NCBI GenBank assembly: GCA_965205485.1
Contig: OZ242180.1
Coordinates: 288,001 to 352,000 of the forward strand
Direction of reading: 5' to 3'
Source of the DNA: Candidatus Latescibacterota bacterium
GTDB lineage: Bacteria; Latescibacterota; UBA2968; GCA-2709665
Length of the DNA: 64,000 bases
The stretch's first letter is position 1. Each line of letters begins with the position of its first letter. This document shows, one piece after another, positions 3,001-12,000 of the stretch. Position numbers: made by a program.

Positions 3001-6000
3001 GTCAATCCCGTCCGCCTCGCGGCGCCGCTATCGCCCAACGTTGCGGCCGAACTGGAAGGCCGCAAGGTCCCCCTGGAACCCATCGATGATGCCTACAGCC
3101 GCCTGACACGCCTTCACGATATCGTCCTGGTGGAGGGCGTGGGCGGCCTGCTGGTTCCCATTCGGGACGACTTTCTGGTCGCGGACCTTGCGCGCCGCCT
3201 GGATCTGCCCCTGCTGGTGGTCGCCCGCGCCGCGTTGGGCACGATCAACCACACTCTGCTGACGCTCGAAGCCGCCCACCGGCGCAACCAGCAGGTTATC
3301 GGCGTCGTCTACAACACGACCGGCCCCGGAGATCCGCGAGCCGCCCGCACCAGCCCGGAAGTGATATCCCGACTGTCCGGCGTCCGCTCCCTGGGCATCG
3401 TTCCCCATGATCCCGGCCTGGACGTGGATGCCGGAAACCCGGGATGCCTGCCCGACCTCATCGATCAACACGTGAACCTGGATGGCGTCTTCTTCTGAGT
3501 CCTGTCCAGGTCTTCCGCCTTCAGTTCACCGGCCTATCCTTTCTCCTGCTTCGCCACGCCGCGCGTTACCAGGTATTCGACAATCTTCGGGTTGATCAGA
3601 TGCAGCCAGGGCAGAAATCTGAGCTTGAAAGGAATGATCAGTTCCCGCTTCCTTTTCTTCATGGCTTCGATGATGGCCTGGCTGGCGTCGTCCAGAGAAA
3701 TGGACTCCTTGCTGTGCTTGCGGCTGGACGCGCCTAAAGAGCCGCCGTGCTTGCCGAAGGCCGCTTTGCGCAGATTCGTGCCCCGCAGCCAGTGGGGCAG
3801 CACCGTCAGGACGTCCACGCCGGTGTCGAGCAACTCCGTCCGCAGCGACTCGAAGAATCCCTGTACGGCGTGCTTGGATGCCACGTACCCGGTATGCATG
3901 GGGACGCCGATCTTTCCCTGGATGGAAGAGATCGCCACCACCATCCCGTCGCGCGCCTTCAGATGCGGGAGCGCGTAATACACGCAGTGCACGATGCCCA
4001 GGTAGTTCGTTTCCATCAACTTGCGAAAAATGGCCAGGTCTTCCACCTCGTCAAACCGCGCCCACATGCTGATGCCCGCACACGCAACCAGGTAGTCCAC
4101 GCCCCCGAACTCGGCAACCGCCGCGTCGATCCAGGCCTCGCAGTCCCCGGGTTTTCCGACGTCGCCCGTGGCCGTAACCGCGCGTCTGCCCCGCGCTCGA
4201 CACGCTTCCGCGGTATCCTGTACACCCTCGTCCAGGGCGAACAGGGCCAGGTCCGCGCCCTCGTCGGCGAACGCCAGCGCCAGAGTTGCCCCCAGGCCCG
4301 ATGAAGCGCCGGTTATCGCGACGATCTTTCCGTTGAACATTAGGAAACCCAATCTCCAAACAGCCGTCAGTTATCAGACGTCAGCTAAGAACAAAAACAA
4401 AACGAAAAAACCCCTTTTCCCAAAATTCCCTGCCTACGGCGTGTTCCTTTTGAAGCGACCAAAAGGAACCAAAAAGTCGCCGCTGGGCGCGGGGCCTGCC
4501 TTATGCAGAGCGCGAATTTCCTTACTGGATCCGCATAGCACGTTGCCCTGCCAGCCACAGAAGAAGACCCATTTTCAGTGTGGGACGGAACCACGCGCTC
4601 TGCTCTGGAAGCACTCTGGAATGCAGTCGCGTTAGAAATCTGACTGGCCTGCCGAGTAAGAGCAGCAATCAGCCGCCAACTTAAGGCGAAAGGCGGCACC
4701 AACGCAAAACCGAGCGGTGGACATTCTCTCTCAGTAAAACCACCGACCGCACGGTCGTGGTGAGGGGGGTTTTTCCGTGCAAATCCGTCCCGCACCCGTC
4801 GTATTGGGACACGGGGCGCTCAGGCCACCCAATTTCCATTTTCGCCACTGAGGTGATTCACGGAAAAACCGGCCCCGCGCCGAGCGGCGCCGTTCTTTTT
4901 GGCCCTTTTTCTTTGGCGAGAAAGAAAAAGGGCGTAAAAAATTAATAATAAATGATTTAGGATATAAATCACGTGGTCTAAAAGCGAGACTATTTAATCC
5001 TGATGCCTTAGCCTGTTTCTCCGAAAACGCCGTTCCGTATTCCAAATATATTTTTCGGATCCATCGCGTTTTTCGCCTGGCGCATGACCTGCATGCTGTT
5101 ATCGGTCTGGATCTGAGGCAGGAAGTCCCGCCGAACCTTGCCGACGCCATGGTGGTGCGACAACGACCCCCCGTTGTCAAGTATCACCTGCCGCAACTGG
5201 TGTTCGATCGCGTGAAACGTCCGGCCGGGTTGTTCCAGGCCCTTGCCGTAGATGCCCATGGTAAAATAGATGCAGACGCCCGTATGGTAGGTCTGCGTCA
5301 CCCTGTACGAGAGATAGGGTTTGCCGGGTACGTCGTGCTTGTCTGCCTGGGCGACCAGTTCGCCGGATACCGCATCGCACACCTGGTGAATCCGGTCCCA
5401 GGGCACGGACGTTTCGAAGGTTTCCCCGAGAATTCCGTACTGGTTCAGGAAGTCCCGGATATAGGCGATGCCGAACGTCAGCGAGTACCCCCTCTTGCCG
5501 TTGCTCGCGCCCGCGCTCTTTGCGCCGTATTTTTTCGCCAGGCTGAAAATCGTGCGTTCCTGCTGACCGACCTCGTCGTGCGTTCCCTCCATCACGATGG
5601 TACATGCCGCCATCTTCATGGGATCGAAACCCAGCAGCTTCAGCAGGACGAACTTCTGAATCCGGTCCTTGACGCTTTTAAGAAACGTCGGCGCCGGTTT
5701 CAGCGCCTGGCCGAACCGGAATTCGTTGTTGTTGACCAGGCGGATACTGGCGGGCAGCATACCGGTCTGCCGGAGCGCCTTCAGGTACGCGACGCCCTTC
5801 TCGAATGCCGGAAACACAAGCGCGCCGTACCTGCGAGTCTCCGGGATCGGATGGATCTTGATCACCGCCGTGGTGATGATTCCGAAATTGCCTTCGCTGC
5901 CGAAAAGCAGACCCCTGGGCTGAACGCCCGTGGAATTCCTGGGCGTCACAGCTCGTGTGGCAATCTCCCCGGTGGGCGTCACCAGCGTCGCCTCGAGTAC

Positions 6001-9000: not shown

Positions 9001-12000
9001 ATCGCCGTCAATCGGCCTCGGCGGAAACCACTGAAACCGCCCCGTCCCCCTCTTTCAATACGTGGTGTTTCAATCCCGGAATGTGGATCTCCTGGATATA
9101 TTCCCGCCAGTCGATGCGCGTCACGTCAAAGTTGAATTCCCTCTGATCTTCGGGATTCAGCGCCTCGAACAGCCGGCGGGTATTCTCCGTTTCGAACTCG
9201 CAATCGAGATGGGTGTACCCGCAATAGGTATCGACCAGGGACTCGAGCCGCTCAAGCACGGCTTCCATACCGGACACCCGGCGCCTGTAGCGGGAAACCC
9301 ATCGGGCGGGCAGATAGTCCACGGCCGCCTTCAACAGGCTCAGGGGAAGCTTGTACTTCAGGGCGACCAGACAACGGAACCGCCGCTGGCTGATGAACTT
9401 CCAGGGCCGGACGTCGATGGGCCGCCCGGCTCGGTCCTGCATCGGCGAAGATTTGAAATACCCGTATACCAGTTCGACCATTTCGCTGGCCCGAACCGGG
9501 TTCTGTGAGCCCGAGGCCACGTGGTAGACCTTCATCTCCCCGGACCCGTGTACCTGCGGAAGAACCGCGGTGACGGCGTTGCTCAGGACGTCCACGGGTA
9601 TGATATCCAGCACAATCCCGGGATCGATCGGGAAATTTGAAAGCCGGCCCTTGCCGTAGTGGACGATCAGCGGATCGGCGACTTTCAGGTCCTCCACCCA
9701 GCCGGGTTCCGGGTCCTCCAGGCTGCTCTCCACGATCGCCGGCCGGACGATGACCGTCGGAAGGTCTCCCCGCAGTTTCACGACCAACTGTTCGCCCATC
9801 GCCTTGGTGAGGGTGTAGCTGTCGTTCCAGCCGTGACGCCTCGCACGCCGCATCCCTTCGTCCACCATCTGCTTCCGGATCCATCGCTGGCGAAGGGCTT
9901 CTACCTGGTGTGCCTTCCGGTAGTCGGTCACGCGTTTTCCGCGGTCCTGCCGCCGGAGCTGCTTCAGGAACGCCGCCTCGAGGCCGGGTTCCCTGGATGC
10001 CTCCTCGACTTCCCGTGTAAAGGCCCGGATAGCGTCAATCTCGTCCTGCAGGTCGAACCCGGCGGCCCTTCCGTTGATAAGGTCCGAAACGCTCTTGTTT
10101 TGGGGAAACGGCACTTCGGGTATCCGGCCGGTGCGCTTTCCGCTCACGTACGCGGTTGATACATGAACGAGCGCAGCTTTCCGGCAGGCTTTCGCGAAGG
10201 CGACGACGCGGGCGGCGCCCATCGCATTCTGTTCGAGGGCGCTGTCGATGGGCTCGTCGAAGACCACGGTCCCGGCGTAATTGACGACAAAATCGACGTC
10301 TTCGGCGAGTCGCTCGCGTTGTTCGGTGGAAATCCCCAGTCCGTCTTCGGTCAGATCGCCGGCCACTGCCACGACCTTCTCGGACATCACCGATGGAAAT
10401 GCCGCGCCCCACTTCGCTCGCAACCTTTCGAACGCGCGGGACTGAAGGATTTCGGACTCCAGGCGTTCCGCATCCGAGACGATCTGGCCGTTGGAACGCG
10501 ACCGGGGACGGATCAGGAGATAGATCCGCGCCACCTCGGGCGCGGAAAACAGGACCTTCTCCACGAACCCCTTCGCCAGGAACCCCGTCGCGCCGGTTAC
10601 AAAAAGCGTCTTGCCGCTCAGAAACTCTGCAATGGACTGCATAACTTCCCGAATTGGACAAAAAACCCGTTTCCCCTACCTCATTAGTCAGCCGCAACAA
10701 TCCGGAAGAATCTCCGTCGTTGTTCTTCCGTCATCGCGCCGCGAGGTCGAGTGAACGGGACGTCATAAAATCGCTGAATCGCAATAACCAATGGCAACCG
10801 TAAACCATACCACCGGTGTTCGTTTACCAGATAAGGAAGGAAAGCCAAGATCCGCTTGGAGTCAAGGGAAATCTGGTTACGGACACTTTTGATTTGTCCT
10901 TTGGATTCTTTCCTCGTATATTTGGTATAAATGAGGAAGTGATGTCTATGAAATGGCTAAGAGAAAATGCAGCAGCAATTATGGCTATAATGGCTATTCT
11001 GACTCCTTTGCTGCTTTATGCTTCAAGCATAGATGGACGACTTGATAGCATAGAAAAGGATGTTTTGGTCATAAAGAAGGATCTTTCAGCGTTGAAGGGA
11101 GATCTTTCGGCGTTGAGGGGAGATTTCTCAGTGTTGAAGGGAGATCTTTCAGCGTTGAAAGGAGATTTTTCGGCGTTAAGAAAGGATCTTTCAGCCATTA
11201 AGCGTCATATAGGAGTTTCGTCGGCTTCAATTGCAACCAGCGAAAATTAGACTCAATCAAACCCACTAAATGGAAACTTCATCCAGTGGGTTTTAATCAT
11301 TCTGGCAAAACAAACCGCTCAGTCACTCAATTGTGACTGAGCGGTTTGTTTTGCTGACCGGGAAGTTCATTACTCAATACAGGATGTCGGGATTTTTAGG
11401 TCGTTTTTGGACATTTCGAGACTTTTTCGGGATTTCCCATCAGTGTCTTGCCTGAATCCTCCCATACCGCTTCATCTTCCGCCGTTGCTTCGTATTCTGT
11501 CTGTGATTCGTAATGTCCCAGAAGGCGTCGGACACGGTCCTCGTCCCAACCATCCGGAAATCTGGTCGCGTTCTTCATCTTCCTCTCCTTCTCATCCGCC
11601 TGCGATACGCAATTGGCGATTTACCGTTCAGTTCGTAGGCGGTAATGACAAATGCACAGTTCGGTTCGGGATCCGGTACATAGATTGGTCGGAGATATCA
11701 ACCTCCTCGAATCCGTCCAATTGCAACACGCGATCCTTCTCGACTTGGTCCGTTTTTGACCGGCACAGAGGATACCGTCTCGGCTGGATGATCACTTAAA
11801 AATACTTTCTGCGAATCAACTCGTTTACTGTTCGCTGCAGATCTGCCAGAAATTTTCCATCAATATTGGCCGTCCACCAATGTGCAATATCATTCCTGTA
11901 TTCCGTCAACTCCTGTAGGGTCTTTTTGCCGGCCACAACTACATTGTCATTCCTGATATTTCCCCCATAGCCTAGGTACTTCGCTCCAGCCTCTACCAAC

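What a model noticed while it worked through the whole genome (the two positions that open the first line are those of the whole stretch)
3534..10642. A four-gene operon for the animal-type (peroxisomal) ether-lipid route replaces PlsX/PlsY/GpsA in a whole bacterial clas [...]
The genome has no PlsX, PlsY, PlsB or GpsA, so it lacks the standard bacterial way to start glycerophospholipids. Instead g00236 (fatty acyl-CoA reductase), g00235 (unannotated 646-aa protein with a GPAT/PlsC acyltransferase fold, proposed DHAP acyltransferase), g00234 (alkyl-DHAP synthase) and g00233 (PexRAP-like reductase) form one operon that mirrors the peroxisomal FAR-GNPAT-AGPS-reductase pathway. This would give 1-O-alkyl-G3P to the retained PlsC and CdsA; the swap is a trait of class UBA2968.
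Evidence so far: Swiss-Prot: g00234 43% to human AGPS (E 6e-160), g00236 35-38% to plant FARs, g00233 hits rat PexRAP at 34%. The g00235 model (pLDDT 90.7, call 126) matches PlsC, plant GPAT and human GPAT1 as its top six Foldseek rows. Six-frame searches: PlsY 0 of 132 class genomes vs 29 of 36 in other classes; PlsX 0 of 53 order genomes over cut-off; GpsA 0 of 53; one PF01553 hit in this genome, PlsC-like g02554. g00235 is in 130 of 132 class genomes vs 2 of 36 others; one of those two (G008, 99% complete) is PlsY-less. AGPS ortholog in 123 of 132. The four-gene order is kept in 4 of 10 loci fetched, and in 3 of them it lies divergent from ndk-yceD-fabH-fabD-fabG-acpP-fabF, where plsX normally sits; in th [...]
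(Added by a program. Inside this text positions count along the whole contig: contig position 288,001 is position 1 of the stretch shown here. "Call 12" and the like, gene names such as g00115 and contig names such as C1 are that model's own, and its searches are not shown. The text may have been shortened before it was handed on; [...] marks where a part breaks off. The agent that wrote the report below was given it as the finding of a first reader that could run no searches.)

Follow-up and report, generated by a model that had tools for sequence, protein, structure and literature searches.

The report
Ether-lipid route replaces standard phospholipid start
An uncultured class of bacteria has lost the usual genes for the first step of membrane-lipid synthesis and carries instead an ether-lipid gene set built around an unrecognised acyltransferase, and in a few relatives the ether-forming half is swapped for two other enzymes, which points to the unknown ether-forming step of the bacterial elb pathway.

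Summary
Real, and largely as described. Four minus-strand genes encode a fatty acyl reductase (FAR), an orphan 646-aa protein X with a PlsC/GPAT-fold domain (Z 15.4), an alkyl-DHAP synthase (AGPS) with intact active-site residues, and an SDR. plsX and plsY-gpsA are cleanly cut out of their usual loci. In the class: PlsY 0/132, GpsA 0/132, PlsX 1/132; X 130, FAR 128, AGPS 124, SDR 119. In other classes: PlsY 29/36, GpsA 29/36, PlsX 33/36; X 2/36.

Correction: the gene set is class-wide, the operon is not (27/28 near-complete genomes of the own order, 0/30 in the largest family). X is no GNPAT orthologue, and DHAP specificity is inferred.

Added here: 8 genomes lacking both AGPS and PlsX/Y/GpsA carry an ElbC-family (LarA-like) protein, 8 of 168 with no AGPS overlap. 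Within one genus, AGPS+SDR and ElbC+Zn-dehydrogenase replace each other between the same flanking genes.

The pathway type is known from Myxococcus, and agps/elbD hits in Latescibacterota are published. This scan had noted both the operon and the ElbC idea on other DNA. No enzyme or lipid data. New variant of a known kind.

The parts
9008..10642 (-). Alcohol-forming fatty acyl reductase (FAR), 544 aa; TGATGFLA at 16, YTLTK at 276
   Evidence: PF07993 E 3e-64, PF03015 E 2e-16; PDB 7eoz fatty acyl-CoA reductase E 3e-93; motifs; single copy
6942..8882 (-). Protein X (g00235), 646 aa, orphan acyltransferase family; proposed sn-1 DHAP acyltransferase
   Evidence: No Pfam/NCBIfam hit; model pLDDT 91.9; 130 of 132 class genomes
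6957..7814 (-). Acyltransferase domain of X (residues 357-642); motif P443-x-H445-Q-S-x-x-E450
   Evidence: VIA-align Z 15.4, rmsd 3.0, 222 aligned to PlsC 5kym; Foldseek top six rows PlsC/GPAT; hhalign prob 78.5, E 1.7e-5; H445 invariant and D/E450 in 69 of 69
7827..8882 (-). N-terminal helical domain of X (residues 1-352), conserved, function unassigned
   Evidence: Model pLDDT 86.5; only generic helical-bundle matches; many invariant residues
5008..6855 (-). Alkyl-dihydroxyacetone-phosphate synthase (AGPS), 615 aa; R372, Y530, H567-H569 kept
   Evidence: PDB 4bby E 1e-150 over residues 45-608, against E 4e-25 for the next family; R372 and Y530 align to the positions changed in 4bc7 and 4bca; kept in 7 of 7 homologues aligned
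4353..5007 (.). 655-bp dispersed repeat inserted between AGPS and SDR
   Evidence: 54 further blastn hits in the genome at E<=1e-8; the gap is 61-86 bp in three genomes of the same genus
3534..4352 (-). Short-chain dehydrogenase/reductase, 272 aa (start may be the ATG at 4340); proposed acyl/alkyl-DHAP reductase
   Evidence: PF00106; NF004825 286 bits vs cut-off 215; orthologue in 120 of 168 genomes, all AGPS-positive
10816..19812 (.). About 9 kb of unrelated genes and repeats between FAR and ndk; absent in G040, G042 and G070, where FAR and ndk are head to head
19813..25665 (+). ndk-yceD-rpmF-fabH-fabD-fabG-(acpP)-fabF fatty-acid cluster without plsX
   Evidence: gene names partly from recalled motifs and gene order
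21163..21212 (+). 50-bp junction rpmF-fabH, the slot that holds plsX in G010 and G035

Best explanation
The four genes are the organism's entry into glycerophospholipid synthesis, through DHAP instead of G3P. Shown: gene identities or folds, conserved catalytic motifs, linkage, and loss of plsX, plsY and gpsA. Inferred: X transfers an acyl chain (probably from acyl-ACP, as no acyl-CoA synthetase is linked in this genome and the operon faces the fab cluster in relatives) to DHAP; FAR makes the fatty alcohol; AGPS exchanges acyl for alkyl; the SDR reduces alkyl-DHAP to 1-O-alkyl-G3P, and may also reduce acyl-DHAP to lysophosphatidic acid, so ester lipids stay possible; PlsC and CdsA continue. 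The expected lipids are 1-O-alkyl-2-acyl phospholipids in an unknown share. In a minority of relatives the back half AGPS+SDR is replaced by an ElbC-family (LarA-like) protein plus a Zn-dehydrogenase, inferred to do the same two steps.
For: Complementary distribution in 168 genomes: PlsY 0/132, GpsA 0/132, PlsX 1/132 in the class vs 29, 29 and 33 of 36 outside; X 130, FAR 128, AGPS 124, SDR 119 of 132 vs 2, 3, 1 and 1 of 36. Clean excision at both canonical loci. X has the PlsC/GPAT fold and HX4D/E; its LPxH-x-S motif I resembles GNPAT/PlsB rows (LLPSHRSYMD, YVPCHRSHID) more than the own PlsC (SNHASYTD). The only other PF01553 gene is an ordinary cmk-linked PlsC. AGPS keeps its active-site residues and needs acyl-DHAP (established AGPS chemistry, recalled). 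61 of 132 class genomes have no GlpK match either and PF16901 (GlpD C-terminus) was found in 0 of 5. X also sits behind FAR in elb-type clusters. Of 134 genomes without PlsY and GpsA (133 also without PlsX), 124 have AGPS, 8 have ElbC, none has both, and the other 2 are contig breaks. G038 ACS-FAR-X-AGPS-SDR-HAD-MT vs G039 ACS-FAR-X-HAD-ZnADH-ElbC-MT in one genus, with sister X proteins.
Against: No enzyme, lipid or expression data. X lacks the Glu and Arg of the EGTR motif (Met/Ala and Thr), its fold hits cannot tell DHAP from G3P, and the best fold match is PlsC, an sn-2 enzyme. GlpK is present in this genome and in 49 of 53 genomes of the order. An EgsA/GldA-like dehydrogenase occurs in GlpK-less genomes (8 of 106 at E<=1e-40, all GlpK-negative, plus G008 and G128), and 4-8 CDP-alcohol transferases are kept per genome, so free glycerophosphate probably exists and the 'no G3P' argument is weak. 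GGGP synthase is present. In family f4 X is unlinked to FAR and AGPS (0 of 30) and ElbD brings its own acyltransferase domain. G031 lacks PlsX/Y/GpsA and X alike, so X is not the only solution. G034 has both systems. Genomes are kin: the swap rests on about four independent cases. Pontiella carries elbD homologues without detected ether lipids (PMC11868695).
Confidence: 0.7

Rival explanations
1. X is a glycerol-phosphate (G3P or G1P) sn-1 acyltransferase that replaces PlsX/PlsY directly. Ester lipids are the main product; G3P comes from GlpK, an EgsA/GldA-like enzyme or the SDR; ether lipids arise on the side, with the SDR oxidising lysophosphatidic acid to acyl-DHAP for AGPS.
For: Fold matches are all G3P/LPA acyltransferases. 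GlpK in 49 of 53 genomes of the order; EgsA/GldA-like protein in GlpK-less genomes. X is kept in genomes without AGPS and is unlinked in f4.
Against: GpsA was lost together with PlsX/PlsY. X lies directly behind FAR in 28 of 28 near-complete genomes of the order and in both cluster types. The AGPS-less genomes carry ElbC in its place. No GNPAT structure was among the matches, so the fold search could not favour DHAP.
Confidence: 0.17
2. The cluster makes accessory lipids (alkylglycerols, wax or storage lipids), as the MXAN_1676 operon is a minor route in Myxococcus; the membrane starts by another, undetected enzyme or relies on GGGP-type isoprenoid ethers.
For: In M. xanthus loss of MXAN_1676 reduces ether lipids only slightly (PMC9131029). 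GGGP synthase over cut-off in the own genome. The N-terminal 350 residues of X are unexplained.
Against: GGGP synthase is also in G010, which keeps PlsX/PlsY. No G1P dehydrogenase was found in the own genome. fab genes, PlsC and a bacterial CdsA are kept. X is single-copy in 130 of 132 genomes and its tree follows the families, as for a core gene.
Confidence: 0.11
3. The missing PlsX, PlsY and GpsA are artefacts of incomplete assemblies or insensitive searches.
For: All are metagenome-assembled genomes; one class genome (G145) has a PlsX.
Against: Single-contig genome with joined flanks at both loci; 0 of 132 vs 29 of 36 with strong scores in sister classes; control genomes ring.
Confidence: 0.02

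Closest known systems
Myxococcus xanthus MXAN_1676-1675-1674 operon (AGPS; FAR-GNPAT fusion; NAD-dependent epimerase/dehydratase), as described in PMC9131029 and PMC13012113
   Same: Bacterial cluster with AGPS, FAR, an acyltransferase and an NAD-dependent oxidoreductase; same inferred acyl-DHAP logic.
   Different: Here FAR and acyltransferase are separate; X is not of the GNPAT/PlsB sequence family (no Latescibacterota row in the GNPAT dataset); the route is minor in M. xanthus but stands with class-wide loss of plsX/plsY/gpsA here; no CarF match (0 of 5, control silent).
Peroxisomal ether-lipid pathway of animals (FAR1, GNPAT, AGPS, acyl/alkyl-DHAP reductase)
   Same: AGPS is a clear homologue with the same active-site residues; FAR is of the same Pfam families.
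   Different: X has about 10% structural identity to the GPAT-fold enzymes matched, lacks the EGTR Glu/Arg and has a 350-residue N-terminal domain of no known fold; the SDR's orthology to PexRAP/DHRS7B was not tested; animals keep GPAT beside this route (recalled).
M. xanthus elbABCDE ether-lipid operon (Lorenzen 2014, seen only through PMC9131029, PMC13012113 and the sponge papers)
   Same: Family f4 has ElbD-type FAR-ACS-ACP-AT proteins; eight AGPS-less genomes have an ElbC-family protein, seven of them with HAD (ElbB-like) and a Zn-dehydrogenase beside it. MXAN_1529, which is elbC by locus order, is LarAH group 15.
   Different: The window's own genome has no ElbC, HAD partner or ElbD. In G008, G037 and G039 the ElbD functions are split into (ACS), FAR and X.
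PlsX/PlsY + GpsA and PlsB, the standard bacterial routes to lysophosphatidic acid
   Same: Same slot in the pathway, upstream of PlsC and CdsA.
   Different: Genes absent; the inferred acceptor is DHAP and the first stable product may be an ether.

Membership tests
Alkyl-DHAP synthase (AGPS) for 5008-6855 | Full-length similarity to AGPS far above other VAO-family flavoenzymes | tested here: met
   E 1e-150 to 4bby, 8e-82 to 2uuu, next family 4e-25
Alkyl-DHAP synthase (AGPS) for 5008-6855 | Active-site Arg419, Tyr578 and His615-617 equivalents | tested here: met
   R372, Y530, H567-569; the catalytic roles of these residues are recalled, the mutated positions are seen in 4bc7 and 4bca
Alkyl-DHAP synthase (AGPS) for 5008-6855 | Acyl-to-alkyl exchange on acyl-DHAP | not testable with these tools
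   needs an assay
Alcohol-forming fatty acyl reductase for 9008-10642 | NAD_binding_4 + Sterile domains, TGxxGxxG/A and YxxxK | tested here: met
PlsC/GPAT (lysophospholipid acyltransferase) superfamily for X | Alpha/beta acyltransferase fold | tested here: met
   Z 15.4, rmsd 3.0, 222 aligned to 5kym; next Z 9.6 and 8.9 are GPATs; ESM feature hits to PF01553 clusters at 0.90
PlsC/GPAT (lysophospholipid acyltransferase) superfamily for X | Catalytic HX4D (motif I) | tested here: met
   H445 in 69 of 69; position 450 is D in 55 and E in 14, E in the window protein
PlsC/GPAT (lysophospholipid acyltransferase) superfamily for X | Motif III FPEGTR with Glu and Arg | tested here: not met
   aligned stretch reads YPMGTT; Glu is M/A/T/V and Arg is T/V
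GNPAT / PlsB family for X | Sequence match to PF01553 + PF19277 | tested here: not met
   no Pfam hit at E<=0.1 but one chance-level family; profile of 69 sequences finds no PDB acyltransferase; 1 of 87 homologues carries a precomputed PF01553
GNPAT / PlsB family for X | Acylates DHAP | not testable with these tools
   inferred from context
Acyl/alkyl-DHAP reductase (PexRAP/DHRS7B, Ayr1) for 3534-4352 | Orthology to a characterised acyl/alkyl-DHAP reductase | not tested
   PDB hits are generic SDRs at E 1e-24; no comparison with PexRAP was run
Acyl/alkyl-DHAP reductase (PexRAP/DHRS7B, Ayr1) for 3534-4352 | Classical SDR motifs and coupling to AGPS | tested here: met
   TGASSGLG, YVASK; next to AGPS in 54 of 58 near-complete assemblies; never without AGPS
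M. xanthus MXAN_1676-type operon | AGPS clustered with FAR and a GNPAT-like acyltransferase (FAR-AT fusion) | tested here: inconclusive
   AGPS and FAR clustered, but the acyltransferase is separate and of another family; no direct comparison with MXAN_1675 was run
elb operon (for the AGPS-less relatives, not the window) | ElbC = LarAH group 14/15/16 protein | tested here: met
   NF052592 full-length in 8 genomes, over the 740-bit cut-off in 2 (G031, G152) and at 510-523 bits in 6; no direct alignment to MXAN_1529
Plasmalogen pathway | CarF/PEDS1 desaturase | tested here: inconclusive
   PF10520 0 of 5, but no control genome rang

The most novel reading that the evidence does not exclude
Class UBA2968 makes all its glycerophospholipids through acyl-DHAP with a new acyltransferase family, so that its membranes are mainly 1-O-alkyl-2-acyl lipids and it has no G3P-acylating step at all; and the ElbC-family nickel-pincer-type protein with its Zn-dehydrogenase is a second, non-homologous alkyl-DHAP synthase/reductase pair, the missing ether-forming step of the widespread elb pathway.
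Probability: 0.35. Interest if true: 0.9.

Novelty: new variant of a known kind. Interest (0 to 1): 0.74.

Why it matters
PlsX/PlsY or PlsB acting on G3P is taken as the general bacterial start of phospholipid synthesis. A whole class that has dropped PlsX, PlsY and GpsA and kept an acyl-DHAP gene set would be a third start, with an acyltransferase that family searches miss: a 2026 survey lists Latescibacterota FAR and AGPS but no GNPAT for them. It names candidate producers of alkyl glycerol ethers in environments where Latescibacterota agps hits are reported. The AGPS+SDR versus ElbC+Zn-dehydrogenase exchange turns an open question, how the elb pathway forms its ether bond, into a two-gene swap experiment, and would give nickel-pincer-type proteins a reaction other than racemisation.

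Tried and rejected
Sequence searches for distant relatives of X: 87 proteins and 66 cluster representatives, mostly fragments, none outside the family; no PDB sequence match. 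N-terminal domain folded alone: no Foldseek match at E<=0.001, best Z 9.4 to a designed helical filament, no usable Atlas hit; its function stays open. Long open frames at X in genus g31 suggested a fusion: in G164 the 320 upstream residues had no Pfam hit and G167 of the same genus has a normal 649-aa ORF; not pursued. Hidden AGPS in AGPS-less genomes: 5 of the 8 were searched with PF02913 and all 14 matches gave only partial alignments to AGPS at GlcD-like level. Hidden ElbC in AGPS-positive genomes: only N-terminal matches at E>=1e-28, as ordinary LarA gives. G1P dehydrogenase in the own genome: four of five PF13685 hits were scanned and are AroB or Fe-alcohol dehydrogenases; the fifth was not scanned. 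LarC is in 5 of 5 genomes tested, including the ElbC-less own genome, so it does not discriminate; LarB and LarE were not searched. Promoter/terminator scan: no more than in shuffles. Expression: no RNA holder listed. Poribacteria ElbC loci: Zn-dehydrogenase upstream in 38 of 78, no X or FAR within 9 kb. No complex prediction was run, since binding is not claimed. Wax-ester synthase and Ger were not searched. Literature searches that found no paper: elbD+ether lipid+lactate racemase/DUF2088, racemase+elbD+ether lipid, AGPS residue names; (elbC, LarA, ether) listed nothing relevant among 10 rows; one search gave one plasmalogen review, not read; one search listed no paper on plsX/plsY loss in Latescibacterota among 20 of 155 rows.

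Full report
THE OBSERVATION. The window holds four genes in a row on the minus strand: 9008-10642 (544 aa), 6942-8882 (646 aa, called X here), 5008-6855 (615 aa) and 3534-4352 (272 aa). The gaps are 125, 86 and 655 bp. The last gap is a dispersed repeat with 54 further hits in the genome; three genomes of the same genus have 61-86 bp there. Co-transcription was not shown: the promoter scan gave nothing above shuffles.

GENE IDENTITIES. The first gene carries PF07993 and PF03015 and matches a solved fatty acyl-CoA reductase at E 3e-93. The third matches mammalian alkyl-DHAP synthase at E 1e-150 against 4e-25 for the next flavoenzyme family, and keeps R372, Y530 and H567-569; the first two align to the positions changed in the mutant structures 4bc7 and 4bca (their catalytic roles are recalled). 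The fourth is a classical SDR (NF004825 over cut-off); its PDB hits are generic and I did not test the PexRAP label. X has no family hit. Its model (pLDDT 91.9, 69 sequences) matches PlsC of Thermotoga at Z 15.4, rmsd 3.0, 222 residues, over positions 357-642, then human GPAT1 (9.6) and plant GPAT (8.9); Foldseek agrees weakly (best E 2.6e-4). Profile alignment to 25 PlsC-type domains (prob 78.5, E 1.7e-5) puts invariant H445 and D/E450 (D in 55, E in 14 of 69) on the HX4D motif, but the Glu and Arg of EGTR are replaced. The LPxH-x-S form of motif I resembles GNPAT/PlsB rows seen in a paper's dataset more than the genome's own PlsC. The N-terminal 350 residues are conserved, helical and unmatched. 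The family is small: 87 proteins and 66 representatives, mostly fragments.

THE MISSING STANDARD ROUTE. The own genome (one contig, 97.3% complete) has no PlsY, PlsX or GpsA match at E<=10 and one PF01553 gene, a PlsC behind cmk. Both losses are clean. G010 has ndk-yceD-rpmF-plsX-fabH and G035 yceD-rpmF-plsX-fabH; here rpmF and fabH are 50 bp apart. The genes flanking plsY-gpsA in G010 are about 0.2 kb apart here. Among 168 genomes of the phylum (132 in the class, 36 outside): PlsY 0 vs 29, GpsA over cut-off 0 vs 29, PlsX over cut-off 1 vs 33. The one, G145, has plsX on a separate 154-kb contig; contamination is possible but untested. Conversely X is in 130 vs 2, the FAR Sterile domain in 128 vs 3, AGPS at E<=1e-60 in 124 vs 1 and the SDR orthologue at E<=1e-50 in 119 vs 1. 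CdsA is kept in 5 of 5 tested.

I counted gene order in 58 of the 59 class assemblies listed with at most 10 contigs (G037 left out, having no AGPS or SDR): all four genes in order in 27 of 28 of the own order, but X is next to FAR or AGPS in 0 of 30 of family f4, where AGPS-SDR stay paired in 27 of 30. In f4 the FAR domain lies mostly in 1400-1480-aa ElbD-type proteins (FAR-ACS-ACP-acyltransferase), and a canonical PlsC score is seen in only 1 of 76 (170 weaker matches were not listed). So the gene set is class-wide and the operon is order-level. The head-to-head position with ndk holds in G040, G042 and G070 but not here, where about 9 kb intervene.

THE SWAP. Eight class genomes had no AGPS hit. 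Two are contig breaks (G061 shows the start of AGPS at the contig end; X of G074 runs to a contig end). The other six, and the only two outside genomes that lack PlsX, PlsY and GpsA together (G008, 99% complete; G031, 96%), all carry a full-length LarA-like protein of NCBIfam family LarAH14/15/16; none of the 125 AGPS-positive genomes does. In G008, G037 and G039 the order is (ACS)-FAR-X-HAD-Zn-dehydrogenase-LarA-like, with a lipid kinase after it in the first two; G031 has ElbD-HAD-ZnADH-LarA-like-kinase and no X; G149, G150 and G153 have HAD-ZnADH-LarA-like-kinase apart from X, and G152 has at least HAD-ZnADH-LarA-like. MXAN_1529 of M. xanthus, elbC by the locus order given in PMC13012113, is listed as LarAH group 15 in a dataset of PMC7583248, so these are ElbC-family proteins; I did not align them to MXAN_1529 directly, and six of eight score below the family cut-off. 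They keep equivalents of LarA D72, H108, K184 and H200 but not H174. The sharpest case is one genus: G038 reads ACS-FAR-X-AGPS-SDR-HAD-methyltransferase, G039 reads ACS-FAR-X-HAD-ZnADH-ElbC-methyltransferase, and their X proteins are sisters (100/100). A second genus splits the same way (G151 with AGPS-SDR against G149, G150, G152, G153). The AGPS of G038 and G151 are 70% alike and 44-48% like the class's main type, which suggests an acquired cassette. This is about four independent cases, not 134. It supports X as the acyltransferase ahead of either ether-forming module and pairs ElbC with AGPS and the Zn-dehydrogenase with the SDR. That pairing is inference.

MECHANISM. Most likely X acylates DHAP, FAR supplies the alcohol, AGPS makes alkyl-DHAP, the SDR reduces it to 1-O-alkyl-G3P, and PlsC and CdsA continue (0.7). 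The donor is probably acyl-ACP in this genome, since no acyl-CoA synthetase is linked (best hit to the f3 enzyme is 30%); this is inference. Acyl-DHAP reduced by the same SDR would give ester lipids, so the ether share is open. Against DHAP specificity: GlpK is in this genome and 49 of 53 of the order, though only 71 of 132 of the class; PF16901 was in 0 of 5; an EgsA/GldA-like dehydrogenase is found in GlpK-less genomes (8 of 106 sampled at E<=1e-40, plus G008 and G128); and CDP-alcohol transferases are kept. A glycerophosphate pool may therefore exist, and the rival that X acylates G3P or G1P keeps 0.17. GGGP synthase is present but also in PlsX/Y-positive G010, and no G1P dehydrogenase was found in the own genome.

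WHAT IS KNOWN. M. xanthus has an AGPS, FAR-GNPAT, NAD-epimerase operon that contributes little, and the elb operon whose ElbC has unknown function and whose steps to the alkyl ether are unknown (PMC9131029: passages and first part of section 6). agps and elbD hits in Latescibacterota are published: the sponge preprint 10.64898/2026.06.23.733905 (parts 1-4 of 6 read; supplements closed, and they may list these loci) and PMC11868695 (passages: agps 67 of 92 and elbD 50 of 92 MAGs). PMC13012113 (parts 1 and 4 of 7, passages, supplement files 1-12 searched, 13-15 and the SI PDF not) has 39 and 32 Latescibacterota rows in its FAR and AGPS datasets and none in its GNPAT dataset, which does hold GTDB taxonomy. 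PMC7583248 (passages, dataset rows) found no activity for a group-14 protein in seven reactions; PMC12611868 (part 1, passages) treats single-histidine LarA homologues and never mentions lipids. Passages only: PMC9426513, PMC11770544, PMC6431249, PMC13159169. Lorenzen 2014 was not seen. I found no paper on X, on plsX/plsY/gpsA loss in this class, or linking ElbC to LarA; the library lacks most subscription papers. This scan had already noted the same operon in another genome (three notes) and ElbC as a LarA-like candidate ether-forming enzyme; these are unchecked notes. I recorded the swap before opening them.

VERDICT. A real feature and a new variant of a known kind: known chemistry, a new acyltransferase family, an apparent takeover of the first step of phospholipid synthesis in a whole class, and a gene exchange that makes the elb ether-forming step directly testable. 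All functions are inferred. Interest 0.74.

Noticed in passing
L040 2470-12058 (G038) vs L034 5198-15467 (G039): Same genus, same flanks (ACS, FAR, X, HAD, methyltransferase); AGPS+SDR in one, Zn-dehydrogenase+ElbC-family protein in the other.
   Followed up: yes
L152 6507-15415 (G031): A 96%-complete genome outside the class lacks PlsX, PlsY, GpsA, AGPS and X; it has ElbD-HAD-ZnADH-ElbC-lipid kinase plus a canonical PlsC, so an elb operon alone may start its phospholipids.
   Followed up: partly
family f4 (e.g. L157, L159, L161): Canonical PlsC scores are missing in 75 of 76 genomes; the best PF01553 matches are mostly the ElbD acyltransferase domain or about 450-aa proteins, so ElbD may supply the sn-2 step there.
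   Followed up: partly
L184 910-1935, L185 1402-2424, L199 1489-2574: Distant EgsA/GldA-like dehydrogenases in GlpK-less, GpsA-less genomes; not found in the own genome, which has GlpK. Possible glycerophosphate source.
   Followed up: partly
L177 / L201 5330-6076 (own genome, outside the window): GGGP synthase over cut-off directly behind alaS; no G1P dehydrogenase found in this genome.
   Followed up: partly
L050 5938-6798; L157, L159, L161, L170: A YegS-like lipid kinase follows the SDR in G042 and lies next to ElbD in f4; possibly an alkylglycerol salvage kinase. Not found in the own genome.
   Followed up: no
L039 (G034): An outside-class genome with PlsX/PlsY/GpsA also has FAR-X-AGPS-SDR on a 7-kb contig; its X falls with the own order in the tree: transfer or binning error.
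   Followed up: partly
L165 10016-11651 (G145): The only class PlsX, in yceD-rpmF-plsX order on a separate 154-kb contig; possibly contamination.
   Followed up: partly
L074-L151: Closest ElbC relatives of G037 (66-72% identity) are mostly in Poribacteria and a few Phycisphaerae, with the Zn-dehydrogenase upstream in 38 of 78 loci and no FAR or acyltransferase match nearby.
   Followed up: partly
window 4353-5007 and about 14700-15080: Two families of dispersed non-coding repeats with tens of copies in the genome.
   Followed up: no
window 10816-11250 (+): 144-aa ORF with a hydrophobic N-terminal stretch and tandem heptad-like repeats just upstream of FAR; weak DUF2730 hit.
   Followed up: no
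window 1328-3498 (+): bioA- and bioD-like genes converge on the SDR; the same neighbours occur in G040 and G042 (names from recalled motifs).
   Followed up: no
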